From positions 4,843 through 68,842 of the forward strand of contig JALUUW010000003.1 of NCBI GenBank assembly GCA_027021195.1: a stretch of DNA of 64,000 bases, read 5' to 3'. Positions 1 through 51,842 of the stretch are shown one piece after another. Within the stretch, counting starts at the first letter, position 1. Each line of letters opens with the position of its first letter. The notes beneath the pieces were generated by a model, which ran no database searches, was not told the origin of the DNA, and saw only the letters and a list, made by a program, of their open reading frames with translations. The position numbers and the translations under genes were made by a program. The stretch comes from Candidatus Pacearchaeota archaeon. GTDB lineage: Archaea > Nanobdellota > Nanobdellia > Pacearchaeales > GW2011-AR1.

Positions 1-587
1 CTGAAACTATTGAACCTGGGAAGATAGAAATCGCTATCTTTAATGATTTGAAAGAGTTTACAAAAAAATATGAATTTGAAAATAATAAATCTCTTCCTTT
101 TTTTGTTGTAGGATTTGCTGGAAAGAACGGCAGAATTTTTATCTTGGATAAAAAACTTTTTCCAAAACAAGGACACAGAGAAGAAGAATTTGAAAGAGTC
201 GTTGTTCATGAATTATGCCATGTATTTATCAGGAGAATGCTACACCCCAAACATACTTTCATTTGGATAGAGGAAGGGCTATGTGAATTTTTGTCTTTTG
301 GAGATTATCCTTTAAAAATAAAAAAAATAGTGGATTTTAGAGAGATTGAAACTTCTGAAGGATGGAGAAAGCATAATGCCTATCAACAAGCAAAAGGTTT
401 TTTTAAATATTTATCTAAAAATTATGGGGATAAAAAAATAGTGGAATTTATTAAAAAAATTAAAGTTACTTCTGAGAGAAAGGCATTTAAAGAGGTGTTT
501 GGAAAAGAAATAAATGAAATCCAAGAAAAGTTCTTTAACACCTTGAAAAATGAAAAAACTCTATCATCCGGGAATTCCTTGCAATGA
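1..587 (+). CDS. 5'-partial CDS: HExxH zinc metallopeptidase-like protein (gluzincin-like HELCH...EEGLCEF)
   Basis: Reading frame is open to the window edge. The track starts it at a TTG at 48. HELCH motif plus a downstream EEG..E. Overlaps the start of the rSAM gene. Confidence 0.45.
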   Translation, partial: ETIEPGKIEIAIFNDLKEFTKKYEFENNKSLPFFVVGFAGKNGRIFILDKKLFPKQGHREEEFERVVVHELCHVFIRRMLHPKHTFIWIEEGLCEFLSFGDYPLKIKKIVDFREIETSEGWRKHNAYQQAKGFFKYLSKNYGDKKIVEFIKKIKVTSERKAFKEVFGKEINEIQEKFFNTLKNEKTLSSGNSLQ

Positions 588-1716
588 GAATATAGTTCAA
601 AAAGATTTAGAAAAGAGTCTTATTAATTTTAGAAATAAGCGTATAGAGATTGTTGAATGTAATGAAGGGTTTGGAGTTTTTGATAAAGACTGGTTTTGGG
701 CAACAAAAGAAGAGTTAGATTCTCTTAAGAAATGCCCAGATATCTCAATAAGGTATTTTTTAGATAATGAAAAGTTCAATCATGAAGGATGGTTTTTTTA
801 TAACCCAATAGAACTTGGTATAGAATTAACAAGAGAATGTAATCAGCTGTGTATTCATTGTTGGAATGAATCTTCTTCAAGGGATACTAAAATGCCTTTG
901 AAGAAGGCAAAAGAAATTATTCAGGAATTTAGAAAAGGAGGAGGACAGAAAATAAAGATATCTGGTGGAGAACCATTATCATATTCTTCTTTAGATGAAT
1001 TTTTATTTTTTTCAAAAGAAGTTGGGATAAAAAAAGTAGATATGACATCTAATGGAGTGTTAATGAATAGGGAAAAAGCAAAATTTTTATCTACTCATCT
1101 AACAAATATATGTATAAGTATTCATGGTTCTAAATCAGATATACATGACGATATAACTTACAATAAAGGAAGTTTTGTAAAATCTATTAAAGCAATAGAG
1201 CATCTTCAGGAAGAAGGGTTAAACCCCATAATTAATTATACTGTTATGCAGAAAAACAAAAAGGACATTGCAGACATGATTGAATTAGGGAAAATTCTTA
1301 ATGTTAACGGGATAAAATTCAGTTGTTTAAAAAAGATTGGAAGAGCGAGAAATTTAGAGGTAATTTCTAAAGAAGAGGTAAATACATTAAGAAATTTAAT
1401 ATATACTAAATCGAAAGAGCTTGGAATTGAGTTAGAGAAGAGTGAATTGTATCCTGCAGGATATGTTCAAGGCATTAGTCAATCAAAATTTTATGGATGT
1501 AATGGATTAAGAACCCAACTATATATCTCTTCAGAAGGCAACGTTTACCCATGTAGTTTAATAAATGAAAGTATTGGAAACATTTACCAAGATTCTTTAT
1601 TTAATTTATGGAGAAGTAAAAAAGCTCAGGAATTTAGAAGATTGGATAATTGTATTAAAAATGATTGCAAAATAATTAGGGATTGTGGGAGAAAGTGTAG
1701 GGCAAGTTTGAAGTAA
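550..1716 (+). CDS. radical SAM / SPASM-domain enzyme (peptide-modifying rSAM family)
   Basis: CNQLCIHC = Cx3Cx2C radical SAM motif. SGGEPL glycine-rich SAM motif. C-terminal Cys-rich SPASM/twitch region (CNGL...YPCS...CIKNDC...CGRKC). About 95-aa N-terminal extension before the core. Confidence 0.8.
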   Translation: MKKLYHPGIPCNENIVQKDLEKSLINFRNKRIEIVECNEGFGVFDKDWFWATKEELDSLKKCPDISIRYFLDNEKFNHEGWFFYNPIELGIELTRECNQLCIHCWNESSSRDTKMPLKKAKEIIQEFRKGGGQKIKISGGEPLSYSSLDEFLFFSKEVGIKKVDMTSNGVLMNREKAKFLSTHLTNICISIHGSKSDIHDDITYNKGSFVKSIKAIEHLQEEGLNPIINYTVMQKNKKDIADMIELGKILNVNGIKFSCLKKIGRARNLEVISKEEVNTLRNLIYTKSKELGIELEKSELYPAGYVQGISQSKFYGCNGLRTQLYISSEGNVYPCSLINESIGNIYQDSLFNLWRSKKAQEFRRLDNCIKNDCKIIRDCGRKCRASLK

Positions 1717-1793
1717 CGAGGGAGAGTTAAATATAAAATATATTTTGACCATGGAAGAAAAATAGGGTATGGGAAGCTAAAAAAAGAGCAGAT

Positions 1794-2372
1794 ATGGAAG
1801 GTTATGAGAATATAAAATTTGTTAAAGCTGATATCAATTCCTTACCCTTTGACTCAGAAACGTTTGACGTTGTCATAGTAGGAAATGTCTTCTCTTTGAT
1901 AGAAAATAAAAAAATTGCATTAAAGGAATGCATGCGTGTTTCTAAAAAAAATGGATTTATTATTGTAATCCCTATGTATTACATAAAAGAACCTTCGAAG
2001 GAACTTATAAAGAGAGTTTCCAAAGCCCTTAAAGTCGACATTGCTCCTATGTATCGATCAGATTGGATAAATTTCTTCTCAATATCTGGATTAGAAATAT
2101 ATTGGTCAAAAGATTTCAAATTTGACCACATAGACAATAAAAAAATAATTTCCTTTTGTGAGGAGATTTTTAATAAAGAACATTTACGAAACTTGACTAA
2201 ATCGGCATATGAGAAACTATTTGAAGTTTATCAGAAATTTATGTTTCTATTTCGCGATAATTTATCTCATATGGGATATATCATACTTATTTTATCTAAA
2301 AGAAAGTTGTGGGAAGATCCAGAACTCTTTACATCCAGAGAAAATATCTCCCTTGGAAACTTTAGTCAATAG
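1794..2372 (+). pseudogene. N-terminally truncated class I SAM-dependent methyltransferase (motif I missing)
   Basis: Protein begins at the post-I/motif II region (VKADINSLPFDSETFDVVIV...KKNGFIIV). No GxGxG motif. Only 77 nt separate it from the upstream rSAM stop, with stops in all upstream frames. Confidence 0.4.
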
Positions 2373-2390
2373 AATAAAATATGGTAATTC

Positions 2391-3416
2391 TTATTTGATT
2401 CCTTTTTCTAAGAACTCAAAATTGTTTGTTTCTGAGTCAATTACAACTTTTGTACCAATAGGGATAGTTAGCTGAGGATCGGTATGACCTATATCCACTC
2501 CAAACAAAATGGGAAAATTATATTCTTTTGTTCTCTCCAGTAACTTCTTTTTTAGCATTTCTATATCTTCTTCATTATATCTAAAAGGTCTGCCAAAAAT
2601 TAGCCCTCTGATTTGTTTAAATACTCCTAAAATGTTTAACTGCTCCAGATACCAGTCAACATAAGGAAGGGGTTCCCCTTCATCAAATGTCTGACCTTCT
2701 GGCAATTCTAAAAATAGAATCTTATCTGTATGATCTGGCCAGTATTTTGTACCTGGCAAATGGACTATTGATGTGAGACATCCTCCTATAATTTTACCTT
2801 CTGCTTTTCCTCCTCGCAACCATTCAAAACCTTTATTTTCTTTCAATTTTCTTGGCCTTGTAAGATCCAACTTTTTACTCCAATCTAAGAATTCATCAGT
2901 CCAGCTTTCAGAAGGAGATACTTTTCCTATGGGTTCATCTGATGCTACTGCCTTATTAAAATAATCTAAAGTATATTTAAGAGGATGAGGGTATTCTCCA
3001 AATTGAGTTATAATACATGGTCCATAAAAAGTTATAAGATTGGATTGCGTATGGAGTGCATAGTGCAAGATAGAGATATCTGAATAACCACAGAATATCT
3101 TTGGATTTTGTTTTATTTTCTCAAAATCTAAATAATTTAGAGTATGGGTTGCTACTGTTCCTCCAATTAAAGATATAATTGCTTTTATATCTTTGTCAAG
3201 AAAAGCGTCCATTATGTCTTTAGCCCTTTCTTCTGCAGGAGCAGATTCCCATCCGTTAACTTTTCTTGCTGTAGGAAACTCTTTAATTTTATAACCCTCA
3301 GATTTTAGAAATTTAACCGCATTGTCAAGTCTATGGGGAAAGTTCAATCCAGACGATGGAGCGATTATTGCTATTGTATCTCCTTTTCCAAGTCGTGGAG
3401 GCTTAATTAGTTCCAT
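2391..3416 (-). CDS. S66 family LD-carboxypeptidase (LdcA/MccF-like)
   Basis: N-terminal GDTIAIIAPSSG. Catalytic-Ser motif CGYSDIS. C-terminal GHTD. Typical ~340 aa length. Confidence 0.7.
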   Translation of the reverse strand: MELIKPPRLGKGDTIAIIAPSSGLNFPHRLDNAVKFLKSEGYKIKEFPTARKVNGWESAPAEERAKDIMDAFLDKDIKAIISLIGGTVATHTLNYLDFEKIKQNPKIFCGYSDISILHYALHTQSNLITFYGPCIITQFGEYPHPLKYTLDYFNKAVASDEPIGKVSPSESWTDEFLDWSKKLDLTRPRKLKENKGFEWLRGGKAEGKIIGGCLTSIVHLPGTKYWPDHTDKILFLELPEGQTFDEGEPLPYVDWYLEQLNILGVFKQIRGLIFGRPFRYNEEDIEMLKKKLLERTKEYNFPILFGVDIGHTDPQLTIPIGTKVVIDSETNNFEFLEKGIK

Positions 3417-3623
3417 TAATTTTTAACAGAGGTAAAACTTTAAATATTTATTGGATTCCCTCTAACAACCCCTTCATTCAAAATAAAAGAAAAAGCCATT
3501 ACAGATATGACTATGATGCTAATTTGAATTAAGGACAAGCAAACCTTCGGCCCTTTTTTTGGGATGGGTTAATGAAAACAATGGCATTTATTCTTGTTTA
3601 TGGGTATTTACTAAGAATAATGG

Positions 3624-3839
3624 CTAAGGAAAACAGCCTAATTTTTCATGTGCTTTTATTAAAAAATCCCTGAAATCTTTTTTGCTTTCCCATACAGGAT
3701 TTAACTTGTTCCTGATTAAATCAAAATCTATCTTCTTTAATCTTCTAATCTCTGCTAATTCACTTATCATTCTTTCGTACTTTTCTTTTGATATTTTTGC
3801 CATTTCCATAATAGCTAAATGGGGCTGATATTTATACAA
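3624..3839 (-). CDS. hypothetical small protein (71 aa), last gene of the rSAM operon
   Basis: ORF lies 23 nt downstream of the HExxH gene on the same strand. No recognisable motif. Confidence 0.3.
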   Translation of the reverse strand: MYKYQPHLAIMEMAKISKEKYERMISELAEIRRLKKIDFDLIRNKLNPVWESKKDFRDFLIKAHEKLGCFP

Positions 3840-3862
3840 TTTTCTAAATAAAACAGGGAATC

Positions 3863-4531
3863 TTATATCTTAATTCTTTTAACATATTCTATACATTCAT
3901 TAATTAGAGGAATTATATCTGGATTATGCTTCCACGTTTCCATTACTCTCTTTCTTAATTCTTTATGTTCAGCATAGCCTTTATCTTCAACAAACCATAG
4001 ATCTCTACACTCTAAATTTAAGATTGCAGTTAAAGACTCATTAACATACTCTATTTCTCTAAACCCTAGCTGATTTCTAATTAAAGGCAAATGTGTTTTT
4101 TCCATCTGTAAATGCATTAATTCATGTCCACATGTTCTTAAATTTTGCAACAGAGGTCTTCGAATTGAGACCATGAAAGAATCCTCCTCCACATTATAAG
4201 GACATCTTCCAGCAGTTGTAATATATGCATTAAATTCATTTGAATATATTTTGTGTTTGGTAATTTTTTCTAACCTTTCAAAAAACCTGTTATTTATTTT
4301 TCCCCAAGAGTTCTGCAATGTTTCTAAAAAGATGTCTAAATGGCCTGAAGAATATAATGGTTGAATATACTGTTCAATCTCTTCCCTACATTCTTCAAAT
4401 TTTCTATTTTTCCACCTCTGTAGGACTGACCCTCTTTCTAATTCATTCTCCCATGGATGCTCGTAGTTGCTAGTTTCCCATATATTCCAAAGGTCTTTTT
4501 CCTTATCAAACTTAAAAATTACTTTTGACAT
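3863..4531 (-). CDS. HExxH metallopeptidase-like protein
   Basis: CGHELMHLQ motif with downstream acidic residues (REIEYVNE). Lies 16 nt downstream of the MTase gene. Confidence 0.4.
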   Translation of the reverse strand: MSKVIFKFDKEKDLWNIWETSNYEHPWENELERGSVLQRWKNRKFEECREEIEQYIQPLYSSGHLDIFLETLQNSWGKINNRFFERLEKITKHKIYSNEFNAYITTAGRCPYNVEEDSFMVSIRRPLLQNLRTCGHELMHLQMEKTHLPLIRNQLGFREIEYVNESLTAILNLECRDLWFVEDKGYAEHKELRKRVMETWKHNPDIIPLINECIEYVKRIKI

Positions 4532-4547
4532 ATTCTTTTTTTGAAGG

Positions 4548-5072
4548 TTAAGCTTTTTGTTTATTTTTTAATAGTAATAAAATAACATTATGTTTATGGG
4601 GGGGCAAATTATCATGCTCTTCAATGGGGGTCTCATACATTCCTTCCTTCATTATTTCCCAATCAGAATATAGGTTTTTTAATTGTTTTAATGAAGGATA
4701 AAACCTATTTTGTGCATTTCTTGCCATAGGGTCTTTATCTGAAAAACAGATGATAAAAGTATGTCCTTGCTCAGAGGTATGTGTTTGTATCTTTTTTAAA
4801 ATATTTTGTGCAGTTACCTTATCTAAAAAATGCAAAACTAACGAAGCAATTATTAAGTCATATTTCTCTTTGAATTCAAAATTTGTTATATCTTCATTAA
4901 AGAATTTAAAATTTTTCTGGGAGATTTCCATAGGTCTTTTATCTACTCCAAGAACTTTTACGCCTTGTTTGGCAAATCTGAGAGATTTATGCCCTTTCCC
5001 ACAACCCAGATCCAAAACATTTTGAGGCTGTAGTTCTTTAAGATATTCTTTGACTTTATCCCTTATTATCAT
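4548..5072 (-). CDS. class I SAM-dependent methyltransferase (TehB-like, Methyltransf_11/25)
   Basis: VLDLGCGKG motif I. Post-I acidic residue. DLIIASLVLHFL motif II/III. Confidence 0.75.
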   Translation of the reverse strand: MIIRDKVKEYLKELQPQNVLDLGCGKGHKSLRFAKQGVKVLGVDKRPMEISQKNFKFFNEDITNFEFKEKYDLIIASLVLHFLDKVTAQNILKKIQTHTSEQGHTFIICFSDKDPMARNAQNRFYPSLKQLKNLYSDWEIMKEGMYETPIEEHDNLPPHKHNVILLLLKNKQKA

Positions 5073-5108
5073 TTATTAATTCTTTAAGTTTATTTTATTT
5101 AATTCTTT

Positions 5109-6170
5109 CTAATCTTGTGAGCTTCCCTGCACATATTCTTTAAAACACATAGGGTCTTTGGCCATATAATCTCCTGTTACTGCATAAGCAATTGCCCTAC
5201 ATCCTCTGCAGTGCACCACTTTATCACAAAGAGTATTCTCCCTCATTTTATTCAAATCTCTTAAATTTTGCATTACCTTGTTCTCTAAAATTAAATTACC
5301 TATTCCGTCACTTATGCGACCTATTTTAATAGGAAGTCTTCTACAAGGATAAACAGTTCCGTCCGATAATATTGAAAGCATTCTAAATCCTGCAGAACAC
5401 CCCCAAAGATATTTATTTTGCTCCTTTGCTGTTTTTATTACTTCGTTTTCTTTTTCCAATATTTGCCAAAGAACATCAGATTGAAGGACATTAATCTTAT
5501 CTCTATATTTTTCATTTAGTCTTTCAGTTTCTTTAACCATCTCGTAGATTTCTTTAGCATTAATAAATTCAGGATCTTTAATTCCTAAGTTTGAATCTGG
5601 ATTATAAGTTTTAAAACCCACTTTTTTAGCTCCTGCTAAAATTGCATTTTGGATAACATCCTCAAACTCTTTTTTATTAGACTGCATAAGAGTCATGGCT
5701 ACTGTAACATTTAAGCCTTCTTTTGAAGCATTTCTTATCCCTTCAATTGCCATATCATATGCAAAATCTTTTCTCCTAATTTTATTATGTGTGCGCTTAG
5801 ATCCATCAAGAGAAACTTGTATTGCTTCAACTTTTTGCTCCAAAAGTTCTCTAGCTTTTTTAGGAGTAATTAATGTGCCATTAGTTAACAAATTTGTTAT
5901 AACTTTTTTCTTACAAGCATATTCTAAAATTTCAAGATGATCTTCCCTCATTAAAGGATCTCCTCCCGAAATTGCGATTCTGGGTATCATCTCCCACCTT
6001 TTTGCTGTCTCTGCTAAATCATCTATCATTGATTTTACTTCATTTAAACTCATTAAATTATCATCTTGGATGTGGTCTACATTCCCTTCGTTGTTATGAT
6101 AACAATGGGAGCATTTAAGATTACAATCATTTGTGGAATCCCCTTGAATATATAAGTGTCTTTTAGCCAT
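5109..6170 (-). CDS. radical SAM / SPASM-domain enzyme
   Basis: CNLKCSHC Cx3Cx2C motif at residue 16 with no N-terminal RRE-like extension. ISGGDPL. C-terminal SPASM cysteines (CSAGF...YPCRR...CDKVVHCRGC). Confidence 0.8.
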   Translation of the reverse strand: MAKRHLYIQGDSTNDCNLKCSHCYHNNEGNVDHIQDDNLMSLNEVKSMIDDLAETAKRWEMIPRIAISGGDPLMREDHLEILEYACKKKVITNLLTNGTLITPKKARELLEQKVEAIQVSLDGSKRTHNKIRRKDFAYDMAIEGIRNASKEGLNVTVAMTLMQSNKKEFEDVIQNAILAGAKKVGFKTYNPDSNLGIKDPEFINAKEIYEMVKETERLNEKYRDKINVLQSDVLWQILEKENEVIKTAKEQNKYLWGCSAGFRMLSILSDGTVYPCRRLPIKIGRISDGIGNLILENKVMQNLRDLNKMRENTLCDKVVHCRGCRAIAYAVTGDYMAKDPMCFKEYVQGSSQD

Positions 6171-6212
6171 TACAAATTAAGAGCAGTTTTTCTAAATCTA
6201 TTTGGAATTTTT

Positions 6213-6338
6213 TTATTCTAAAGAATAGACATCATCTGCGTAACATGCATCTGGACCACAAGCATCGCAAGGGTCACAGTGATAACGATCTTTCTCTTGA
6301 GACGCTTTATTAGTTATATAAGAACTAATATCTAACAT
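6213..6338 (-). CDS. candidate RiPP precursor peptide (41 aa, Cys/Asp-rich core)
   Basis: Hand-translated ORF not in the track: MLDISSYITNKASQEKDRYHCDPCDACGPDACYADDVYSLE. ATG start. Stop lies 42 nt upstream of the rSAM start on the same strand. TTTTTATA element about 55 nt upstream. Confidence 0.45.
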   Translation of the reverse strand: MLDISSYITNKASQEKDRYHCDPCDACGPDACYADDVYSLE

Positions 6339-6392
6339 ACCCTTAAGAAAAGCTTGTTCCTCAGCAGTTCTCTCCAGTTTATTTGTTTTTGC

Positions 6393-6400
6393 TATAAAAA
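6393..6400 (-). promoter_or_regulatory. candidate archaeal TATA box (TTTTTATA) for the precursor-rSAM operon
   Basis: AT-rich octamer about 55 nt upstream of the peptide ATG on the minus strand. Confidence 0.25.
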
Positions 6401-6801
6401 GCCAACAACCTTAATATATTTAAATTTTATTGTAATGGATTTATTTTGTAGTGCCTAAGTAACTTAAAAAGTTATTTATTTGCAGATTTTTCAGAAGAAA
6501 CAACCTCAAACTCAGTTGAGCCTATATAATTTCCATCTACATTAAACACTGTTTTGCAAATCCCTAATTGTAATGATTTGTCAAAACAAAATCCTCTTCA
6601 TTTACATTTCTTGAAAACAAATTGTTTCATTTAATCCATATACCCCGCAGCTCTGCTGCGGTTGGGAGCTTCACTTCAGAACGAGATGGGGCAGAAGTCA
6701 TGACTCCAGAATTAGCGGATGTGTCTTAACAGGAAGTCTTTCTCCTCTGGAAGAATACGTTCTTCTCTCAAAAACCCTTCCCTATCAGCTATTCTAAGGG
6801 T

Positions 6802-7386
6802 TCACTCAGATGTTCTGCTGATTTCATTCAGATATTCTGCTAATTGCCTCATATCATCAGGCTTCCCCTCTAATTCAGAATAATATTTATTGTCCATTTC
6901 AAAGTAAAACCTATTCACGAAATCAATAGTCTCTTTGTATTTGCTTATGCCTTTTTTCTCAACTAATTTATTAAAGCAGTCAATATATCTCATTAGGGCT
7001 TCAGTCAACTCCCTTGTTTCCTCGCTCTCCTTAAGCAGGGCTTTATCCATATTAGAATATGCTTTATCCAAAAATTCAATTACTTCTTTATAATTCTCAA
7101 CCCCTTTTTTTTCCACCAATTTGTAAAAAGCACACGCATATTCTGTTAAAGCCATAGTCAGGTCCCTGATTTCCGGGTCTTTGATTCTATGTATCTCTTT
7201 CTGGAATCTATCCATATCATCAAGTTCTTTTTCTATTGTCTCTTGGAAAGTTTGGTTTTTTATTTTTGACCGAAAAATGATTCCGTGTTCCACTAGACCT
7301 TTATGGAATCCTCTTAATCCTTTCAATATCTTTTCATTTAATTTAATTTTTTCTGCTTCTATCATTTTAATCTTACATAGTTCCAC
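6802..7386 (-). CDS. hypothetical coiled-coil protein with an internal ~42-aa tandem repeat
   Basis: Repeat LTxAL..Y...F.KLVEKKG...YKE.I.F seen twice in the translation. Confidence 0.4.
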   Translation of the reverse strand: MELCKIKMIEAEKIKLNEKILKGLRGFHKGLVEHGIIFRSKIKNQTFQETIEKELDDMDRFQKEIHRIKDPEIRDLTMALTEYACAFYKLVEKKGVENYKEVIEFLDKAYSNMDKALLKESEETRELTEALMRYIDCFNKLVEKKGISKYKETIDFVNRFYFEMDNKYYSELEGKPDDMRQLAEYLNEISRTSE

Positions 7387-7624
7387 CTACCCTTATGCAT
7401 TAATAAAAAAGACAAAAAAAGAAATTATCTTTCAGGTCTTATTTCTTTTCAGATCCTTCAGTCATTTCTAAAACCTTCTCATTTGGCATAGAGGTTTCTA
7501 CAAGACCCAAATGGAAATTCTCAAGACCTTCCAACATTTCCCTGTTAAATCCACATAGGGGCATTTTCTTTTCCTCCTAATTTAGTTAACTATAATATAT
7601 AATTACTTTATATAAACTATTCTA

Positions 7625-8668
7625 TTGGATAATTTTACAAAAAAGAAATATTTATATATTGGTACTTATTTTATGTATAAAATGATGAAATTGGATGTAT
7701 ATGACCGGAGAATTTTGGAGGTTTTAATAGAAAACTCCGAAGAGCAAATAAGCGCTATTGCCAAAAAGATAAGGCTCAGAAGAGAAAACGTTAACTATCG
7801 GATAAACCGCATGGTTAAATCAGGTCTGATAAAAGAATTTAACACAATCTTAAATGAAAGAGCGTTGGAGCTTTCCCACTATGTTGTTTTTGTAGAACTG
7901 ATTAAACTGGAAGAAAAAACAGAGCTGGAAATTATAGATTATCTCAGGAATAGCTCCTTTGTGAGCTGGATAGGAACTTCAGCAGGGAGATGGAGCCTGG
8001 TTTTTGATATAATAGCCTATGATAAAGGCTCAAATTTTGAAAAGATATTAACGGAGTTTCTCAAAAGATTTGGCGGAGATCATATTGAAAACTACGAGGT
8101 TTTGAGGCTGAATAAAAGAGATTATTTTGCATCAAAGTTAATTGGCAAAGAAAAATATTTCCATGAAAATGCTGAAAGCAAGGCCTCTCTTAAAAGATTG
8201 GACAATATAGATCTCAGAATACTTTCATTGCTAAACAAAAATTCAAGAAAAACTTTGGTAGAAATATCTTCTAAAATAGGCTTGACTCCAAATGGAGTTA
8301 ATAATAGGATTAAGGGCCTAATCAATAATGGCATTATAACAGGATATACGATTTCCATTAATTGGAAGAAATTAGGCTATGAGTGGTTCACAATACAAAT
8401 TAAGCTGCACAAGTATGGTGAAGAAGTATATGCCAAAATGGAATCTTTTTTCAGGAATCACAAGAAAGTGGTGTTTTACTACAGATATCTTGGAGGAAGC
8501 TGGGACTATGATATAGGGGTTTTGGTTCAGAATTCAGACGAATTAAGGGATTTTATCAATGAATTCAGGAGAAATCTTTCGGATGTTTCCAAAATCTCTG
8601 ATGTTTTTTTGACTCTTGAAGAAATAACAGGATATAAAATGCCTGAAGGGGTTTTTAATCCTTCTTAA
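7625..8668 (+). CDS. tandem (duplicated) Lrp/AsnC-family transcriptional regulator
   Basis: Two HTH_AsnC-like segments (LDVYDRRILEVL...ISAIAKKI and LDNIDLRILSLLNKNSRKTLVEISSKIGL), each followed by a RAM-like domain. True start is probably at an internal Met near 7673-7685. Confidence 0.6.
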   Translation: MDNFTKKKYLYIGTYFMYKMMKLDVYDRRILEVLIENSEEQISAIAKKIRLRRENVNYRINRMVKSGLIKEFNTILNERALELSHYVVFVELIKLEEKTELEIIDYLRNSSFVSWIGTSAGRWSLVFDIIAYDKGSNFEKILTEFLKRFGGDHIENYEVLRLNKRDYFASKLIGKEKYFHENAESKASLKRLDNIDLRILSLLNKNSRKTLVEISSKIGLTPNGVNNRIKGLINNGIITGYTISINWKKLGYEWFTIQIKLHKYGEEVYAKMESFFRNHKKVVFYYRYLGGSWDYDIGVLVQNSDELRDFINEFRRNLSDVSKISDVFLTLEEITGYKMPEGVFNPS

Positions 8669-11025: not shown

Positions 11026-14000
11026 TTAAATTGATTCCGGCCTTAATATAATTGCACAGCCAGGATTTGTATTTCCTCCAAGATCTTCGCATTTGATGTA
11101 ATGCCTCTTTCCAGACTCCCACTCGCTGGTATGGGTTCTTGAAAATACATCTGTCATAGGCTTTGCATCCTCTCCTCGAATGTCAAATCCGCATCCATTA
11201 AAACTGTAATAGCATTTTGCATCTTCGTCTGTTATTACCTTTAACTCTCCCTCGCTGTAAGCCCTTACTATTTTTGGAGCTTCAGTGTCAAGCTCTAAAG
11301 TGAATACTGCATTTCCATAAGCAGTATTTCCTGCATCGTCTTCGCACTTTACATAAATATTGTAGTCTCCTTTCATCATAGTGTTGAAGTTCTGCTTATG
11401 CCTCCTGGAGAAGCTCTCAAAAAACAGAGTCATGTCATCATATCCTGAGAAACTGTAATAACAGGAAGACTTTCCATTCCTCGCCCCTCCGGAAGTCTCA
11501 ACTTCAAGGTCTACTGAGATTGGCTCGAACCATCTCTTGATTTTTCCCTGAGGGGTTATTGAGGTTATGTTAAGATTTGTCTCTGAAACATAGAGTGTAT
11601 AAACAAAATCCTCTTCATTTACATTTCTTGAAGTGTTCTCTGGAGGAAGCCATGGCTGGTCTTTGCACCTGATGTAAAAATTGTTTTCTCCTTCTGCAAG
11701 CCCTTTAAGAGTGGTGCTGCACTGCCATCCCAACAGCTCCCTCTCTGTTATTCCTGTTTTGCAATCCATTGAATTGCTCATTTCCTCATAGCTTTTTCCG
11801 CTTTCAGTGCTGTACCTGCATTCAGCAGGCTCACTTAGGTAAATCTGAAGAGGCGTTTCTGTAACATTATATTTCAGGAAACTTTCATCCTCTGGAACTG
11901 CAACTGTTCTTGAATGGTCTACAGCAGTTGTGTCTGGCCCTGAGTTAATGCAGAAATTCACCGTATACTCGTCAATATTGTAGTTTCCATGATAGTCCTT
12001 GCACTTAACATACATATTCATGTTTCCAAACATCTCTCTTATGTCTCCTGCAACATCATAGACGCTTAAGCTGTCCAGGCTTGGCATTGAAAATGAAAAA
12101 GTGTGGTTGAGAGTGAATGCATTTTGCTCAACAGGGTATCCTCTCATTTCGTCATATTCTGTTTTCTGGAAATCAAACTTGCACTGCGCAAATTCATCTG
12201 TTTTTAGGCTGAAGCTGACAGGAGTGAATTCAGGGATGCAGTTTCCGTTTTCCCTTCTTATCTCAACTCTTTTTGCATCTTCGTTATTGAACTTGTAGCC
12301 CTCGTCAATATCTCCTGCAGAAATTACAGGAGGATTGCTTTCATAAGGGATGCTCTCGCAGACAGGGTTTTCTGTTTCTTCATTAAGGATTCTGCATGCC
12401 TGCCCAAGGCTCTCGCATCTGTATCTTGTGCAAGGCATTCCTTTTTCAGCAAGCTCGTTGCATCTTTTGCAATTCTCTCCTCCTGCAGGAGCCTGCCATG
12501 GCATGCATGTAAACTCAACAACCCTTTCTTTTGTCTTTCCCCATCCAACAACTATGACATATACCATTATTATTACTGCTGCTGCCAGTGCGTATGTTCC
12601 AAAATTCAATCCCCATTTGAGCCATCCGACCTTCATTAGGCCAAGTATTCCTCCTGCAACCCCTCCTGCTACTGTCAGGACTGTTGCTGCATTTCCAGAC
12701 CTTCCCAAAGACTGGGCAATAAATGCTCCTGCAACTGTTCCTATTGCAAACCCTGCTGCTGCCCATGCGAATGCTCCTATGGATGTATATGTGGTAGAAA
12801 CAACTGCTTCAGATCCTGCAAAAATTGTCTTTGTTCCCAATAATGATGTTGTTGTTTCATAAGCTCCATAAGTGTAGGTGGTAGTTCCTATTCCCAAATG
12901 GCTAATGGCCATAATCAAGGTTCCAGCTCCTCCTGAAACTTCTCCAAGCTGCTTTATTACAGCCTGTATTTTATCCTCTTTAGGCTTTTTGCCAGAATTA
13001 CCGCTTATTGAAGAGATGTAATCATCAATTTCCTGGGGCTTTACATACTGGCCTTCTACAGGATCTGCATAATCCTTATATCTTTCCCATGAAACACTTG
13101 GAGACCGCGTTACTTTAATGTTATCGCTTCCCTCTCCAATATAATTGATATAGCTTCCGCAATCTCCGAGGCTGATGCAAAGGTCATTCATCTGCTCTGC
13201 AAAAACTCCTTTCTCGCAATTGCAGTTCTCAATGCACTCCCACTTTCCTCTTGAGTTTTTTTGGTATATGACAGTGCATTTTTGATTTGCCATTGCGCAT
13301 ATGCTGTCTGCAATAGAGCTTTCCCTTTGCCTGAACCCTCTTGGATATCTTCCAACGCAGACATCAAAGCTGAACCCGTCATCAATATTAATGTTTTTAA
13401 TCATGCAGTGCTTGTTTTTATTGCATTTTTCAGCCATGTTTCCCTGTGAATTGTAATCAAGGCACTTTGTAGCTTCGTTCACAACGCATGAGGCTACTGA
13501 AAAGCTTTTTCCGTTTTCCTCTATTTCTGATTCTGTGCAAAGCCCCCCTCTATAGTCACTGCATCCCTCTGTCTTTACTTCTCCATCAATACATATTTTT
13601 CTCCAGTGCCTGCTTCCTGCAGGATCTTTCCCTTCTCCTATATAAGAGTCATAAGCACACCAGCTCTCCCCGTTCTTTCTCTCTTTTCCGCCTGTCTCAG
13701 GAGATGCAGGGCAGTTTTTGTTTTTGCATATATAATCTCCGTCTTTTGCTTTTTTTCCTCCTGCCTCGTCTGAAGGCGCGCACATGCTTCCAAGGAAATA
13801 ATTGCAGTTTCCGCACTCTTCTGACTGAATATTGTCTGAATCAGGGTTGCAGCTTTCCTGTTTGCTTAACACCTTTCCGTTATTCCACGAAAAATCCCTG
13901 TCTGAGGAATAGATGTTTTCCCTGTTTCCGCAGGAATCAATCCAGTAAATCTCGTCTTTTCCCTCAATGCAGCTTATGCTTGCCTGCCTTTCACATTCAA

Positions 14001-14769
14001 CCCCCATTTCTTTAAATTCCGGATTTGAACATAGATGGTCTTTGTAAAAGTCTCCCTGAATGCTGAGGCATCTTGATTCTGTTGTAAATTCGCATCTGCC
14101 TCCTTCAAGGATGCATGCCCCTTCAAACTGGCTTGCAGAAAGAGCAAGGCATTCAAATTCTGTTTCAAGGTCTCTAAAGTCTTTTTTAAACCCGTAAAAA
14201 GATGAAAGTTTTTCACACCTTTTTTCTGTAACAAACTGCGCATTATCTCCCAAAACACAGCATCCTTTCTGGCATTCGCTTACTAAACATGATTCTTCAT
14301 TTTTCCATATTCCTCCTCCAGACTCGCATTTTTTTCTGGTGGATTTTGTTGTGCATAGCCCCTCATCTTCGTCAATGCAGCATCCTATCTTGCAGTCAGC
14401 AACTTCATCGCATTTTGTCGGAAGAGGATTGTCGCAGCTTTCAGTATCAAAAAACCCGACATCCTGGCATATTGCTCCGCTTTTTGTAACAGGGCAGCAT
14501 TTCCATGACTCTTCTTCTGCAGAAACAATTCCTATCTGTTTTATTGATAAAAATCCCACTAAGAGGCTTGCTCCTGCAGCAATGAGATTCCCAAGACTGT
14601 CTTTTCCTTTATCTCTTTTTATTATAATGGAGCTGCTGTCAGGCTGGCTGCTCATTCCTATAACATAGCTGGTTGCAGGACTCATATTAACCAGAAGGAA
14701 AATCTGGAACATAACAACAGCTAGCAAGCTTAGTTCTGTTTTTCTTTCCCTGATTTTTATTGACTTCAT
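11026..14769 (-). CDS. giant (1247 aa) Cys-rich surface protein with a central Gly/Ala-rich multi-TM region
   Basis: N-terminal hydrophobic segments. Cys-rich ectodomain homologous to the 8690..10177 protein. Residues ~600-730 have several hydrophobic G/A-rich helices. C-terminal Cys-rich beta-rich domains. Confidence 0.5.
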   Translation of the reverse strand: MKSIKIRERKTELSLLAVVMFQIFLLVNMSPATSYVIGMSSQPDSSSIIIKRDKGKDSLGNLIAAGASLLVGFLSIKQIGIVSAEEESWKCCPVTKSGAICQDVGFFDTESCDNPLPTKCDEVADCKIGCCIDEDEGLCTTKSTRKKCESGGGIWKNEESCLVSECQKGCCVLGDNAQFVTEKRCEKLSSFYGFKKDFRDLETEFECLALSASQFEGACILEGGRCEFTTESRCLSIQGDFYKDHLCSNPEFKEMGVECERQASISCIEGKDEIYWIDSCGNRENIYSSDRDFSWNNGKVLSKQESCNPDSDNIQSEECGNCNYFLGSMCAPSDEAGGKKAKDGDYICKNKNCPASPETGGKERKNGESWCAYDSYIGEGKDPAGSRHWRKICIDGEVKTEGCSDYRGGLCTESEIEENGKSFSVASCVVNEATKCLDYNSQGNMAEKCNKNKHCMIKNINIDDGFSFDVCVGRYPRGFRQRESSIADSICAMANQKCTVIYQKNSRGKWECIENCNCEKGVFAEQMNDLCISLGDCGSYINYIGEGSDNIKVTRSPSVSWERYKDYADPVEGQYVKPQEIDDYISSISGNSGKKPKEDKIQAVIKQLGEVSGGAGTLIMAISHLGIGTTTYTYGAYETTTSLLGTKTIFAGSEAVVSTTYTSIGAFAWAAAGFAIGTVAGAFIAQSLGRSGNAATVLTVAGGVAGGILGLMKVGWLKWGLNFGTYALAAAVIIMVYVIVVGWGKTKERVVEFTCMPWQAPAGGENCKRCNELAEKGMPCTRYRCESLGQACRILNEETENPVCESIPYESNPPVISAGDIDEGYKFNNEDAKRVEIRRENGNCIPEFTPVSFSLKTDEFAQCKFDFQKTEYDEMRGYPVEQNAFTLNHTFSFSMPSLDSLSVYDVAGDIREMFGNMNMYVKCKDYHGNYNIDEYTVNFCINSGPDTTAVDHSRTVAVPEDESFLKYNVTETPLQIYLSEPAECRYSTESGKSYEEMSNSMDCKTGITERELLGWQCSTTLKGLAEGENNFYIRCKDQPWLPPENTSRNVNEEDFVYTLYVSETNLNITSITPQGKIKRWFEPISVDLEVETSGGARNGKSSCYYSFSGYDDMTLFFESFSRRHKQNFNTMMKGDYNIYVKCEDDAGNTAYGNAVFTLELDTEAPKIVRAYSEGELKVITDEDAKCYYSFNGCGFDIRGEDAKPMTDVFSRTHTSEWESGKRHYIKCEDLGGNTNPGCAIILRPESI

Positions 14770-16588: not shown

Positions 16589-18202
16589 ATGCAGGAAAAT
16601 CTCAAAAATTCATCAGGGGAGCAAAGCTTCAAAGAGCAGAGGATAAGGAAGATAACTCATTTGTATTACTCAAGGCCGGACATACAGAAAGCAATTTTTG
16701 AATTCTCCAAAAACAGGGAAATTTCACCAAGATATTTTGAAGGCTTCGGCAAAAGGCCTGACAGCTTCCAGTATAAAGGAGATATATTTGAGCTTGTAAA
16801 AAAAGGAGCGACATCCTTTCATTGCTCAGAGGAATTGTGGCAGGACCCTCTTAAAATAACCACTGGAATGACAGAATCCCAGTCAAATGAGCTAAGAATC
16901 GGCTGGGACTTATTAATTGATATTGACTGCAAGTGGTTTGATTATTCCAAGCTGGCGGCAAAAGCAATAATTGGAGTTTTGAAAGATAATGGAATTAAAA
17001 ATCTGGGATTGAAGTTCTCAGGAAGCAAAGGATGGCACATCTTAATTCCCTGGAAATCTTTTCCAAAAGAAATAAATGGGGTCAGTTCATCAAATCTTTT
17101 TCCAGAGCTTCCAAGAAAAATTATAAATTATATAAGATTCCAGTCAGAAAAAAAACTAAAGGAGATGCTTCCTGAAGATTTTGAGGAGCAGTTTAAAGGA
17201 GTGAATATTAAGAGAGGGATAAAATGCAACAGGTGCAGTGAAATTGCCAGCCAGTATGTTTATGCTGTTTTTTCCTGCAGAAAGTGCGGAAGAAAAGAAT
17301 ACAAAAAATTCCATTCAAAAGGCCAGATGAAAAAATACAGCTGTCCTGAATGCGGGGCTGAATTTAAAATAGAGAGCCAACTTACCTATCATGAGTGCCA
17401 TCAGTGCAGGATAAATTCAAAATATAACCCAGATGATTTCTCGCAAACAATACAGGAGGATTTGTTTGATTTAATGGGGCTGGATATTATTCTGGTTTCT
17501 CCAAGGCACTTGTTCAGGATGCCTTATTCCCTCCACGAGAAAACAGCACTTGCAAGTGTAGTAATTGATGAGCAGGATATTGACGGTTTTCAGTTAAAAG
17601 ATGCCAGCCCTATGAAAATCTCTTCAGAAAAAATAAAAAATTTTTCCCCTGTCTCAGCAGAAGAAGCTGAAGCTGAAGCTCTTGTGAGAGAGGCTCTTGA
17701 CTGGACAAAAGACCTTCAGATTGCAAGAGGGGAAACAGAAGAAAAAATAACGGGAAAATATGCAGAGTACAAGCCGGTTAAGCTTGACAATCTTTCAGAG
17801 CAGAATTTTCCGCCATGCATAAAAAATATTCTAAAAGGAATTTCAGACGGAAAAAAGAGGGCTTTGTTTGCTTTAATAAATCTTTTCAGAAGCGTAGGAA
17901 TGGACAAGGAAAAAATGGAGAATGAAATTTATGAGTGGAACAAAAAAAACAATCCGCCGTTAAAAGAAGGGTATATTAAATCCCAGCTTTCATGGGCTTA
18001 CAGAAAAAAGCCAATAATGCCCCCTAACTGCAAGGAATTTTATCAGGGAATTGCAGCATGCCAGCCAGATGATTTGTGCCTCAACAAAGGAATAAAGAAT
18101 CCAGTTAATTATGTTGTAAGAAGAAGCATTTCAAAAAGAAAAGGGCATAGAAAGTCCAGGACAAATGGAAACAGTAAGGATAATTTTAAAAAGAAGAATT
18201 GA
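16589..18202 (+). CDS. priS: DNA primase, fused PriS catalytic domain plus PriL-CTD-like Fe-S domain (single-chain archaeo-eukaryotic primase)
   Basis: AEP motifs GWDLLIDIDC and FSGSKGWHIL. Zn-ribbon cysteines. C-terminal half carries four conserved Cys (FPPC, PNC, AAC, DLC), typical of the PriL C-terminal 4Fe-4S domain. Confidence 0.7.
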   Translation: MQENLKNSSGEQSFKEQRIRKITHLYYSRPDIQKAIFEFSKNREISPRYFEGFGKRPDSFQYKGDIFELVKKGATSFHCSEELWQDPLKITTGMTESQSNELRIGWDLLIDIDCKWFDYSKLAAKAIIGVLKDNGIKNLGLKFSGSKGWHILIPWKSFPKEINGVSSSNLFPELPRKIINYIRFQSEKKLKEMLPEDFEEQFKGVNIKRGIKCNRCSEIASQYVYAVFSCRKCGRKEYKKFHSKGQMKKYSCPECGAEFKIESQLTYHECHQCRINSKYNPDDFSQTIQEDLFDLMGLDIILVSPRHLFRMPYSLHEKTALASVVIDEQDIDGFQLKDASPMKISSEKIKNFSPVSAEEAEAEALVREALDWTKDLQIARGETEEKITGKYAEYKPVKLDNLSEQNFPPCIKNILKGISDGKKRALFALINLFRSVGMDKEKMENEIYEWNKKNNPPLKEGYIKSQLSWAYRKKPIMPPNCKEFYQGIAACQPDDLCLNKGIKNPVNYVVRRSISKRKGHRKSRTNGNSKDNFKKKN

Positions 18203-51624: not shown

Positions 51625-51719
51625 CAAGCTTCAGGGCGGGCATTATGCTTTTTTAAGCGAGCTGCCTCATCTTGCAGAAAAGAGCAAACAGCTTTCTGAA
51701 AAGCTTGCTTTTGAAAAAA

Positions 51720-51842
51720 ATGAAAAGAAGCTTATTTGAGGTGGCATGGGAAATAACAGATGGGTGCAATCTTGAGTGCATCCACTGTTACAACCCCCAA
51801 AAAAAGAAGATATTTTTTAGGCCAGTTAAAGACCTTTGTTGA
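51720..51842 (+). pseudogene. remnant of a radical SAM gene (40-aa N-terminal fragment carrying the Cx3Cx2C motif)
   Basis: Translation MKRSLFEVAWEITDGCNLECIHCYNPQKKKIFFRPVKDLC then stop. Typical rSAM N-terminus that ends before the rest of the domain. Confidence 0.5.

What the first reader, a model, noticed from the sequence alone, without database searches (positions are those of the whole stretch)
6213..6338. Unannotated 41-aa Cys/Asp-rich ORF with CxxxD/CxxD spacing (candidate ranthipeptide- or thioether-type core)
Translation MLDISSYITNKASQEKDRYH-CDPCDACGPDACYADDVYSLE. The C-terminal half holds 4 Cys and 5 Asp. The spacings C21-x3-D25, C27-x2-D30, C32-x2-D35 and C32-x3-D36 match the Cys-to-Asp thioether patterns handled by ranthipeptide (PapB-type) and QhpD-type rSAM-SPASM enzymes. 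It sits 42 nt upstream of such an enzyme, with a TTTTTATA element ~55 nt upstream. It is below the 60-aa cutoff of the ORF track.
Basis: partly seen in the sequence, partly recalled or inferred. Interest (0 to 1): 0.8.

Follow-up and report, generated by a model that had tools for sequence, protein, structure and literature searches.

The report
Archaeal radical-SAM peptide precursor, start lost

Summary
The 41-aa ORF (6213-6338, minus strand) exists exactly as described. Cys-richness alone is not significant: 46 such short segments occur in the window. The evidence is comparative. 50 of 52 distinct DPANN loci with a rSAM homologue at >=41% identity carry a Cys-rich micro-ORF ending within 60 nt of it. 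None of 37 more distant homologues has the conserved ORF.

The core Y-x-CDPC(D/E)(A/G)CG is invariant in 17 DNA versions, with synonymous changes at every codon. The homologous gene is 60 codons (6213-6395). Its upstream 19 codons hold the family's leader motif and align codon for codon with relatives, but the family's ATG is ATA here, in three assemblies. The real promoter is TTTAAATA at 6417-6424, 29 nt upstream, which implies a leaderless mRNA.

The conserved cassette is precursor, RRE-less rSAM/SPASM and TehB-like methyltransferase. This subfamily adds an HExxH metallopeptidase.

Family-wide only a leader Glu and C-x2-C-x2-C are invariant. The Asp residues are subfamily-specific, so the Cys-to-Asp ranthipeptide reading is not supported. 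No curated family (ACGX, PapB, SCIFF, AhbD) is matched at its cutoff. Thioether chemistry is the best guess and is untested.

The parts
6213..6395 (-). Full homologous precursor-peptide gene: 60 codons plus stop. Product would be (I/M)AKTNKLERTAEEQAFLKGMLDISSYITNKASQEKDRYHCDPCDACGPDACYADDVYSLE.
   Evidence: Open frame. Codon-for-codon alignment with the L082, L085, L001 and L002 precursors. dN/dS is 0.35 for codons 2-19 and 0.22 for the rest against L082.
6393..6395 (-). ATA codon at the position of the family's ATG start (start-codon lesion or rare non-AUG start).
   Evidence: L082 reads TTTTTTT ATG GGA AAA where the window reads GCTTTTT ATA GCA AAA. The same ATA is present in ENA contig L126 and Logan contig L127, which differ from the window by 1-2 SNPs elsewhere.
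6213..6338 (-). It starts at the first in-frame ATG, which is the conserved Met that ends the leader motif (FL.SM) in relatives.
6336..6377 (-). Leader motif L-E-x-T-x-x-E-x-x-F-L-x-G-M (residues 7-20). Glu13 is invariant and Leu17 nearly invariant in the family.
   Evidence: Alignments A2 and A4.
6243..6284 (-). Core Y38-H-C40-D-P-C43-D-A-C46-G-P-D-A-C51. C40, C43 and C46 are invariant family-wide. Y38 is nearly invariant. C51 is not invariant even within the subfamily.
6417..6430 (-). Archaeal promoter: A-rich BRE-like ATAAAA (6425-6430) plus TATA box TTTAAATA (6417-6424), at -29 to -22 from the ATA. This implies a leaderless mRNA starting at about 6395.
   Evidence: The TATA box sits at the same position (-29/-30) in 31 of 46 family loci. 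The same geometry is common for other genes in the window.
5109..6170 (-). Radical SAM/SPASM maturase, 353 aa, with no RRE domain. CxxxCxxC lies at C16/C20/C23. Six further invariant Cys: 258, 276, 315, 321, 324 and 342.
4548..5072 (-). TehB-like SAM-dependent methyltransferase, 174 aa. It follows the rSAM in about 30 of 31 DPANN genome loci.
3863..4531 (-). 222-aa protein of a DPANN-only uncharacterised family: a putative gluzincin-type zinc metallopeptidase (H136-E-L-M-H140 plus N-E165-S-L-T) and candidate leader peptidase. It is present only in the CDPCD subfamily.
   Evidence: The AF2 model has pLDDT 94.7. Its PDB matches are weak but uniformly MA-clan peptidases, including EryP.

Best explanation
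The finding is the 3' two-thirds of a 60-codon precursor-peptide gene (6213-6395, minus strand). The gene belongs to a conserved, uncurated, RiPP-type cassette specific to DPANN archaea (Pacearchaeota, Woesearchaeota, Nanoarchaeota). The cassette is precursor, RRE-less radical SAM/SPASM enzyme and TehB-like methyltransferase. In this subfamily an HExxH zinc peptidase is added.

Shown:
- The gene, its frame, its purifying selection and its obligate position upstream of the enzyme.
- The shared leader motif (E..F/Y-L..M) and the invariant C-x2-C-x2-C core.
- The BRE/TATA box 29 nt upstream of the start.
- The ATG-to-ATA change in this genome.

Inferred:
- The mRNA is leaderless and is normally translated from a 5'-terminal AUG.
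- The rSAM enzyme binds the precursor and makes a 5'-deoxyadenosyl radical. It abstracts an H atom in the core and joins the invariant Cys thiols to carbon atoms of neighbouring residues as thioether rings. I give thioether chemistry about 0.4. Because the acceptor positions are not conserved, C-alpha (sacti-type) links or promiscuous links are more likely than Asp-specific links.
- The methyltransferase then methylates the product. A sulfur or carboxylate target is a guess.
- The metallopeptidase removes the leader.
- In this genome the AUA start should cut translation of the full precursor sharply. The cassette here is therefore either freshly inactivated or makes a short 41-aa form from the internal AUG.
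For: - Position and conservation: 50 of 52 distinct DPANN loci have a Cys-rich ORF ending from 60 nt before the rSAM start to 8 nt past it. Only 0-4 noise-like cases occur in 37 distant homologues (Fisher p about 1e-17 to 5e-23).
- Coding selection: the core is invariant in 17 DNA versions with synonymous variation at every codon, and dN/dS is 0.22-0.49.
- Leader and core architecture. The core module is duplicated in L110 and L111.
- Cassette partners. HExxH...NE is invariant, and the fold matches MA-clan peptidases.
- Enzyme: Radical_SAM and SPASM both score above the Pfam cutoffs. The nearest solved relatives are the thioether-forming SkfB and CteB (6.5e-24 and 1.1e-22, against about 1e-13 for MoaA, PqqE and anSME). 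SkfB is also the top fold hit.
- Start codon and promoter.
- Leaderless initiation depends on pairing between the start codon and the initiator tRNA anticodon. SD-less leadered mRNAs were not translated in a Sulfolobus cell-free system (PMC7531240).
Against: - No product, transcript or modification has been observed, so the chemistry is wholly inferred.
- The NCBIfam scores nearly tie between a peptide system (ACGX, 171.8 bits) and the heme enzymes NirJ2 and AhbD (170.2 and 153.5 bits), all far below their cutoffs.
- The enzyme has no RRE and no PqqD-like partner, so how it reads the leader is unknown.
- The cassette has no transporter or immunity gene.
- Only 6 conserved C-terminal Cys are present, and they lack the canonical Cx2Cx5Cx3C spacing.
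- In this window the start codon is lost, and 5 other lineages also carry leader lesions. The gene may therefore be dispensable or decaying.
Confidence: 0.8

Rival explanations
1. The architecture is the same (precursor plus rSAM maturase), but the chemistry is not a thioether. Possibilities: anSME-like oxidation of Cys C-beta to formylglycine or a thioaldehyde; SbtM-like thio-oxazole formation; a C-C or aromatic crosslink involving the nearly invariant Tyr two residues before the first Cys; or epimerisation. S-methylation of the Cys by the TehB-like enzyme would be the main tailoring step.
For: - The highest TM-scores (about 0.7) are to anSME, which is also RRE-less, of similar size and acts on a Cys in a peptide.
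- SbtM, WgkB and ScmE/F appear among the NCBIfam hits at 105-109 bits.
- Y38 is conserved in at least 90% of precursors.
- Both methyltransferases of the island belong to clades that act on soft nucleophiles: TehB, and ArsM/UbiE-like.
- The acceptor residues between the Cys are not conserved.
Against: - By profile, SkfB and CteB (thioether formers) are ten orders of magnitude better than anSME.
- Tyr is replaced by Ser in the closest relative L082 and is absent in L023.
- No sulfatase or selenium context is present.
Confidence: 0.3
2. In this particular genome the gene is a pseudogene or a decaying allele. The ATG-to-ATA change on a leaderless mRNA abolishes translation, so no peptide is made and the downstream enzymes are orphaned.
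For: - ATA replaces the family ATG in three assemblies.
- No other ATG, GTG or TTG lies in frame upstream.
- The promoter geometry implies a leaderless mRNA.
- Leaderless recruitment relies on start-codon pairing, and SD-less leaders are poorly used.
- 5 other lineages carry frameshift or nonsense lesions in the leader.
- Truncated rSAM copies occur elsewhere (L025, L029, L047).
Against: - The rSAM, methyltransferase and peptidase genes are intact here.
- The 19 upstream codons still show dN/dS of 0.30-0.86 and an intact motif, so the lesion is recent or tolerated.
- An in-frame ATG follows at codon 20. The L004 lineage likewise has an ATG two codons after its in-frame TAG, which hints that a short form may work.
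Confidence: 0.45
3. The micro-protein is not a substrate. It is a small metal- or Fe-S-binding partner, such as a mini-ferredoxin, metallochaperone or electron donor for the rSAM enzyme.
For: - The invariant C-x2-C-x2-C, often followed by a fourth Cys, resembles the ferredoxin CxxCxxCxxxC cluster motif.
- The cassette has no transporter.
- The cassette is kept in very reduced genomes.
Against: - The Cys number varies from 3 to 8 and the flanks are hypervariable.
- The core module is duplicated in tandem in L110 and L111.
- The N-terminal region is leader-like with its own conserved motif, and the subfamily has a dedicated HExxH peptidase.
- These are the hallmarks of RiPP precursors, not of folded metalloproteins.
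Confidence: 0.08
4. The rSAM is an AhbD/NirJ-type tetrapyrrole enzyme, as JGI annotates several homologues, and the upstream ORF is incidental.
For: - The NirJ2 and AhbD models score 170 and 153 bits.
- JGI names some homologues 'AdoMet-dependent heme synthase'.
- A divergent double Lrp/AsnC protein at 7625-8668 has faint AhbA/B similarity.
Against: - All scores are far below the 500-bit cutoffs.
- The Lrp-like gene is not conserved in other loci.
- The Cys-rich ORF is conserved in 50 of 52 loci under purifying selection.
- The roughly 32%-identical homologues from Nitrospirota and Deltaproteobacteria lack both the ORF and the methyltransferase.
Confidence: 0.03

Closest known systems
SCIFF/thermocellin system (CteA precursor and CteB rSAM/SPASM, PDB 5WGG)
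   Same: A roughly 45-60-aa Cys-rich precursor is encoded directly upstream of a rSAM/SPASM enzyme. CteB is the second-best solved relative (1.1e-22). Its chemistry is a Cys thioether.
   Different: CteB has an N-terminal RRE of about 100 aa that is absent here; the match starts at CteB residue 105. The precursors do not hit the SCIFF model TIGR03973. SCIFF clusters have no conserved methyltransferase (from memory). SCIFF is bacterial (from memory).
SkfB/SkfA sactipeptide maturation (PDB 6EFN)
   Same: SkfB is the best solved relative both by profile (6.5e-24) and by fold (E 1e-16, TM 0.67). It forms a Cys-S to C-alpha thioether, which is indifferent to the acceptor's side chain. That fits the non-conserved acceptor positions here.
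   Different: SkfB has an N-terminal extension and a twitch-type domain. The TIGR04403 score is 66.5 bits against a 300-bit cutoff. The precursor and operon are unrelated.
ACGX system (TIGR04340 rSAM and TIGR04341 ACGX-repeat peptide)
   Same: It is the top NCBIfam hit for the enzyme, covering the full length (11-345 of 353). It is a Cys-rich peptide plus rSAM/SPASM pair, itself uncharacterised (model type hypoth_equivalog). The window core contains one ACGP.
   Different: The score is 171.8 bits against a 400-bit cutoff. None of 9 representative precursors hits TIGR04341 at E<=10, although the model is in the library. There is no ACGX repeat array.
PapB/freyrasin ranthipeptides and QhpD/QhpC (Cys-to-Asp/Glu thioethers)
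   Same: The window peptide does show C-x3-D and C-x2-D spacings. The enzyme class is rSAM/SPASM.
   Different: The PapB model scores 94.8 bits against a 340-bit cutoff, and QhpD is not among the best 25 hits. The Asp residues are confined to one subfamily. There is no RRE. No amine-dehydrogenase genes are nearby.
anSME (anaerobic sulfatase-maturating enzyme, PDB 4K36-4K39)
   Same: It has the best TM-scores (0.70-0.71), a similar length and no RRE, and it acts on a Cys within a peptide motif.
   Different: Sequence similarity is confined to the N-terminal 125 residues. There is no sulfatase substrate. The SPASM Cys spacing differs.
EryP-type M1 leader peptidases of lanthipeptides (PDB 7V9N-P)
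   Same: The 222-aa partner has HExxH plus a downstream NE, and its fold matches MA-clan gluzincins, EryP included. A leader-removal role is the likely function.
   Different: It is only 222 aa, with a minimal catalytic domain. The Foldseek E-values are weak (0.2-2). It has no Pfam or PDB sequence match. The family is DPANN-only.

Membership tests
rSAM/SPASM-dependent RiPP system (generic kind) | Radical SAM CxxxCxxC cluster motif and a SPASM/twitch C-terminal domain | tested here: met
   PF04055 scores 87.5 bits (cutoff 29.5) and PF13186 scores 29.3 bits (cutoff 21.5). C16, C20 and C23 plus six C-terminal Cys are invariant in 27 homologues. The fold matches SPASM enzymes.
rSAM/SPASM-dependent RiPP system (generic kind) | A small precursor gene conserved next to the enzyme, with leader and core organisation | tested here: met
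   50 of 52 DPANN loci have it, against 0-4 of 37 distant homologues. The precursors share a leader motif and have a hypervariable core.
rSAM/SPASM-dependent RiPP system (generic kind) | RRE (PqqD-like) leader-recognition domain, fused or stand-alone | tested here: not met
   The rSAM core starts at residue 13. The CteB and SkfB alignments begin after their RREs. No PqqD-family hit was found in the neighbours. An RRE is common but not obligatory for this kind.
rSAM/SPASM-dependent RiPP system (generic kind) | Enzyme-dependent covalent modification of the peptide | not testable with these tools
   This needs co-expression or in vitro reconstitution followed by MS.
PapB-family ranthipeptide maturase (NF047865) | Score at or above the curated cutoff (340 bits) | tested here: not met
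   94.8 bits.
PapB-family ranthipeptide maturase (NF047865) | Conserved Cys-x3-Asp acceptor motifs in the precursor | tested here: not met
   The motifs are present in the window peptide. The Asp positions are not conserved across the family's precursors; only C-x2-C-x2-C is invariant.
SCIFF ranthipeptide (TIGR03973) | Precursor matches the six-Cys SCIFF model | tested here: not met
   None of 9 representative precursors hits it at E<=10.
ACGX system (TIGR04340 / TIGR04341) | rSAM scores at or above 400 bits on TIGR04340 | tested here: not met
   171.8 bits. It is the best hit but nearly ties with NirJ2 at 170.2 bits.
ACGX system (TIGR04340 / TIGR04341) | Precursor matches the ACGX-repeat peptide model | tested here: not met
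   No hit at E<=10. The model's presence in the library was verified with a synthetic ACGX repeat.
QhpD/QhpC | QhpD-type enzyme with quinohemoprotein amine dehydrogenase subunit genes nearby | tested here: not met
   QhpD is not among the best 25 NCBIfam hits. The neighbours are a methyltransferase and a metallopeptidase.
AhbD / NirJ heme-pathway rSAM | Score at or above 500 bits, and linkage to ahb or nir genes | tested here: not met
   153.5 and 170.2 bits. No conserved ahb or nir neighbours were found in 30 loci.
Gluzincin (MA-clan) zinc metallopeptidase, for the 222-aa partner | HExxH plus a downstream Glu ligand on a thermolysin-like catalytic fold | tested here: inconclusive
   H136, E137, H140 and E165 are invariant in 39 sequences. 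The model is confident. All top PDB matches are M1 or M4 peptidases, but with E-values of 0.2-2 and TM about 0.35. No Pfam hit.

The most novel reading that the evidence does not exclude
The cassette is not a conventional secreted antimicrobial RiPP. It would be a lineage-wide DPANN system that makes a Cys-derived, methylated small peptide product, such as a metallophore or a cofactor-like or host-interaction molecule, using an RRE-independent mode of leader recognition. The leader lesions recur (ATA start here; TAG followed by a restart ATG in L004; frameshifts in L006 and L100) and all spare the core. Under this reading, that pattern means a short form with only the core-proximal 14-20 leader residues is still processed, or the leader can act in trans.
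Probability: 0.12. Interest if true: 0.8.

Novelty: new variant of a known kind. Interest (0 to 1): 0.6.

Why it matters
To my knowledge no radical-SAM-modified peptide from any archaeon has been characterised. A 2025 survey says only that such clusters are predicted across DPANN and other archaea and remain unstudied (PMC12144867).

This work defines a concrete, testable system for ultra-small symbiotic archaea:
- a precursor family with a recognisable leader motif and an invariant C-x2-C-x2-C core;
- its RRE-less maturase;
- a conserved methyltransferase;
- a new minimal metallopeptidase family.

All of these are currently annotated as hypothetical, missed altogether, or, for the enzyme, mislabelled 'heme synthase'. 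The work also supplies intact alleles (for example L082's 62-mer) that are better expression targets than this window's start-less copy. DPANN genomes are extremely reduced, so a cassette kept in many lineages is likely to matter for their biology.

Tried and rejected
- Curated precursor families: NCBIfam and Pfam scans of 9 and 6 representative precursors found nothing relevant.
- Literature: searches for ACGX, TIGR04340, DPANN + RiPP + radical SAM, and Pacearchaeota/Woesearchaeota + SPASM found no description of this family. Only generic antiSMASH-type counts turned up.
- Defence-system reading: the PADLOC hits to viperins (71.6 bits) reflect only the shared rSAM core and are weaker than the SPASM families, so I rejected it.
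- RNA element: Rfam finds only a tRNA in the window.
- Cys-richness as evidence: rejected after the window and simulation control.
- Frameshifts in L003 and L022 as evidence of pseudogenes: these are two different 1-nt changes in G runs of otherwise near-identical sequences, so they are most likely assembly errors.
- Exact look-up of the window's rSAM protein found no record. The locus was reached through the 100%-identical cluster representative instead.
- Exhaustive profile search for precursors: it returned only 38 cluster representatives. Such short proteins have little statistical power, and many are never called as genes, so this undercounts the family.
- A companion peptide for the fourth rSAM (50317-51624): none found.

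Full report
**1. The observation**

The minus strand of 6213-6338 encodes MLDISSYITNKASQEKDRYHCDPCDACGPDACYADDVYSLE. The stop codon lies 42 nt upstream of a 353-aa protein (5109-6170). That protein has Radical_SAM (87.5 bits) and SPASM (29.3 bits) domains, both above the Pfam cutoffs. TTTTTATA sits at 6393-6400.

The composition, however, is not remarkable. Short stop-to-stop segments with at least 4 Cys in 15 residues occur 46 times in this window and about 9 times per simulated window. The case has to rest on comparative evidence.

**2. Conservation**

The rSAM has more than 2,000 database homologues. The best 120 are 50-100% identical, and those that carry a name are from Pacearchaeota, Nanoarchaeota or unclassified archaea. 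I fetched 80 genome loci and 40 metagenome loci, plus the contigs of the closest relatives.

- Of 52 distinct upstream regions from DPANN-type homologues (41-77% identity), 50 carry a Cys-rich ORF that ends between 60 nt before the rSAM start and 8 nt past it.
- Of 37 more distant homologues (one Pacearchaeota locus, otherwise Nitrospirota and Deltaproteobacteria; 30-35% identity), none has the conserved ORF. Four have unrelated Cys-containing noise. None has the downstream methyltransferase.
- Fisher p is 1e-17 to 5e-23.

In the window's own subfamily the core Y-x-C-D-P-C-(D/E)-(A/G)-C-G is invariant in 17 distinct DNA versions, with synonymous variation at every codon: TGT/TGC, GAT/GAC, CCT/CCA/CCC and all four GGN. 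Against the closest relative (L082, rSAM 77% identical), dN/dS is 0.22 for the 41-aa part at pS 0.45. This is a real protein-coding gene.

**3. The true gene is longer and has lost its ATG**

Relatives' genes encode 52-86 aa. Their N-terminal region contains a shared motif, roughly L-E-x-T-x-x-E-x-x-(F/Y)-L-x-S-(M/I).

This aligns codon for codon with L082:

- L082: TTTTTTT ATG GGA AAA GTA AAT ... GAA CAA GCA TTT CTT GGA AGT ATG
- Window: GCTTTTT ATA GCA AAA ACA AAT ... GAA CAA GCT TTT CTT AAG GGT ATG

So the family's start ATG is ATA (6393-6395) here. No ATG, GTG or TTG lies in frame further upstream.

The 19 extra codons show dN/dS of 0.30-0.86. They have evolved as coding sequence, so the lesion is recent or tolerated. 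The ATA is present in two other assemblies (ENA ERZ27262676 and Logan SRR8439019) that differ from the window by 1-2 SNPs elsewhere. It is not an assembly error. Neither the 41-aa nor the 60-aa product has ever been called as a gene.

**4. Promoter**

Across 46 family loci, the best TTTAWATA octamer starts at -29 or -30 from the start codon in 31 (binomial p about 2e-33). It is preceded by an A-rich BRE-like stretch. The window has ATAAAA-TTTAAATA at 6417-6430, exactly at -29 from the ATA.

A TATA box centred about 26 nt upstream of the start codon implies a leaderless mRNA (archaeal promoter geometry, from established knowledge). The same geometry is common for other genes in this window.

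The G-to-A change happens to create a 7/8 TATA-like octamer, which I regard as coincidence.

Leaderless mRNAs are recruited through pairing between the start codon and the initiator tRNA. SD-less leadered mRNAs were not translated in a Sulfolobus cell-free system (PMC7531240). Both possible routes to a product here should therefore be inefficient: the 5'-AUA, or the internal AUG after a 57-nt SD-less leader.

**5. The cassette**

tblastn of the window's neighbours against the loci gives the following picture.

- A TehB-like SAM methyltransferase (4548-5072) follows the rSAM in about 30 of 31 DPANN genome loci.
- A 222-aa protein (3863-4531) is present only in the CDPCD subfamily. It belongs to a DPANN-only family of 'hypothetical proteins' with no Pfam domain and no PDB sequence match.
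- That protein has invariant H136-E-x-x-H140 and N-E165-(S/A)-L-T. Its AlphaFold model is confident (pLDDT 94.7).
- Its PDB matches are individually weak (E 0.2-2) but are uniformly MA-clan gluzincins: M1 aminopeptidases, vibriolysin/LasB, and the lanthipeptide leader peptidase EryP.
- I infer that it is a minimal zinc peptidase that removes the leader.

**6. The enzyme**

The enzyme has CxxxCxxC at residues 16-23 and no room for an RRE. Six further Cys are invariant: 258, 276, 315, 321, 324 and 342. Their arrangement is Cx17C...Cx5Cx2C...C, which is not the canonical SPASM Cx2Cx5Cx3C.

- NCBIfam: the best hit is the uncharacterised ACGX-system rSAM (171.8 bits, cutoff 400). It nearly ties with NirJ2 (170.2) and AhbD (153.5). 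PapB scores 94.8 against a cutoff of 340. The enzyme belongs to no curated family.
- PDB by profile: SkfB (6.5e-24) and CteB (1.1e-22), both Cys-thioether-forming peptide maturases, stand ten orders of magnitude above MoaA, PqqE and anSME.
- PDB by fold: SkfB is the top hit. anSME, which is also RRE-less and acts on a peptide Cys, gives the best TM-scores at about 0.7.

**7. What is conserved in the substrate**

Over 34 hand-collected precursors and 56 database precursors, the invariant positions are one leader Glu and three Cys spaced C-x2-C-x2-C (C40 falls just short of invariance in the hand-collected set). A Tyr two residues before the first Cys is conserved in at least 90%.

- The residues between the Cys are Asp only in the window's subfamily. 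Elsewhere they are S/E/D/N, V/I/S, K/Q/L or A/P/G.
- The fourth Cys of the window's core is replaced by Tyr or Ser in two subfamily members.
- Cores carry from 3 to 8 Cys, and L110 and L111 carry the module twice.

If thioethers are made, the acceptor is either C-alpha, which is independent of the side chain as in sactipeptides, or it is chosen loosely.

I rate thioether formation at about 0.4 and other rSAM chemistry on the Cys or Tyr at about 0.3. A non-substrate, metal-binding role is unlikely (about 0.08), given the leader/core architecture and the dedicated peptidase.

**8. Known or new**

The precursors match no NCBIfam or Pfam family, including the ACGX-repeat peptide model. I verified that this model is in the library.

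Literature searches found no description of the family. A 2025 survey notes only that rSAM-type RiPP clusters are predicted across DPANN and other archaea and are uncharacterised. Several homologues of the enzyme are labelled 'AdoMet-dependent heme synthase' by JGI, which the context contradicts.

I class this as a new variant of a known kind, the rSAM/SPASM-modified Cys-rich peptide. What is new is the precursor family, the enzyme clade, the absence of an RRE, the obligatory methyltransferase and the new minimal peptidase.

**9. Open point**

Six of the 50 precursor genes have lesions, and all six lie in the leader:

- the window's ATA;
- an in-frame TAG followed two codons later by ATG, identical in three contigs (L004, L094, L095);
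- frameshifts in L006 and L100;
- two different G-run indels in L003 and L022, which are probably assembly errors.

This may be decay of an accessory cassette, or a hint that a short form is usable. The loci were found through intact rSAM motifs, so I could not compare lesion rates between the two genes fairly.

**10. Verdict**

The copy in this window has lost its canonical start.

Noticed in passing
window 1-2372 (+); L126:1471-3643: A second RiPP-like cassette lies back to back with the first. It comprises the C-terminal part of a BSP/MA-type metallopeptidase (window 48-587; 226 aa in full on L126), a 388-aa rSAM/SPASM with an N-terminal extension of about 90 aa (550-1716), and an ArsM/UbiE-like methyltransferase (1794-2372). 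Just left of the window, L126 shows a third rSAM/SPASM (435 aa). It is followed by a 59-aa Cys-rich ORF, MIKDIESVASEGALDTKNIGVLRIRNYCLTDRDYKKPDASDLAEYSCDAVCDNCHCATF, which is a second candidate precursor of a different family.
   Followed up: partly
window 2391-3416 (-): An S66 LD-carboxypeptidase/MccF-like peptidase sits between the two cassettes. This is odd for an archaeon without murein. A 35%-identical copy also sits upstream of the rSAM in L021, the one full-length DPANN-type locus that lacks both the Cys ORF and the methyltransferase.
   Followed up: partly
window 1-8000: The roughly 8-kb stretch holding the cassettes has 29-33% GC, against 35-43% for the rest of the window. It may be an acquired island. 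I did not look for an integrase or a tRNA border.
   Followed up: no
window 50317-51624 (+) and 51672-51842 (+): A fourth rSAM/SPASM protein (435 aa, with an N-terminal extension of about 95 aa) has no Cys-rich ORF beside it. Immediately downstream, a 56-codon frame reads ...WEITDGCNLECIHCYNPQKK. This looks like the N-terminal remnant of another rSAM gene of the same type as the finding's enzyme (TNDCNLKCSHCYHN).
   Followed up: partly
L004:1276-1509 (= L094, L095); L006; L100; L003/L022: Leader-region lesions occur in other members of the precursor family, with the core always intact. They are an in-frame TAG followed by ATG two codons later (identical in three contigs), 1-nt frameshifts in L006 and L100, and two different G-run indels in L003 and L022.
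   Followed up: partly
window 7625-8668 (+): A 347-aa protein with two Lrp/AsnC-type wHTH modules is transcribed divergently from the cassette region. It has faint similarity to the siroheme decarboxylases AhbA/B (29.5 bits, cutoff 125). It is not conserved next to the cassette in other loci.
   Followed up: partly
P0026, P0031, P0042, P0044, P0071: JGI annotates several members of this rSAM clade as 'AdoMet-dependent heme synthase'. The conserved peptide and methyltransferase context suggests this is a misannotation.
   Followed up: partly
window 3624-3839 (-): A 59-aa helical-looking ORF (MAKISKEKYERMISELAEIRRLKKIDFDLIRNKLNPVWESKKDFRDFLIKAHEKLGCFP) is called by gene finders between the HExxH peptidase and the S66 gene. 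Its function is unknown.
   Followed up: no
window 11026-14769 (-), 16589-20064 (+): Very large ORFs of 1247, 537 and 621 aa have no Pfam domain at E<=1e-5. The 1247-aa ORF has an antisense frame (12640-12840) with 8 Cys in 15 residues, which is probably a compositional artefact of a repetitive, Cys-codon-complementary sequence.
   Followed up: no
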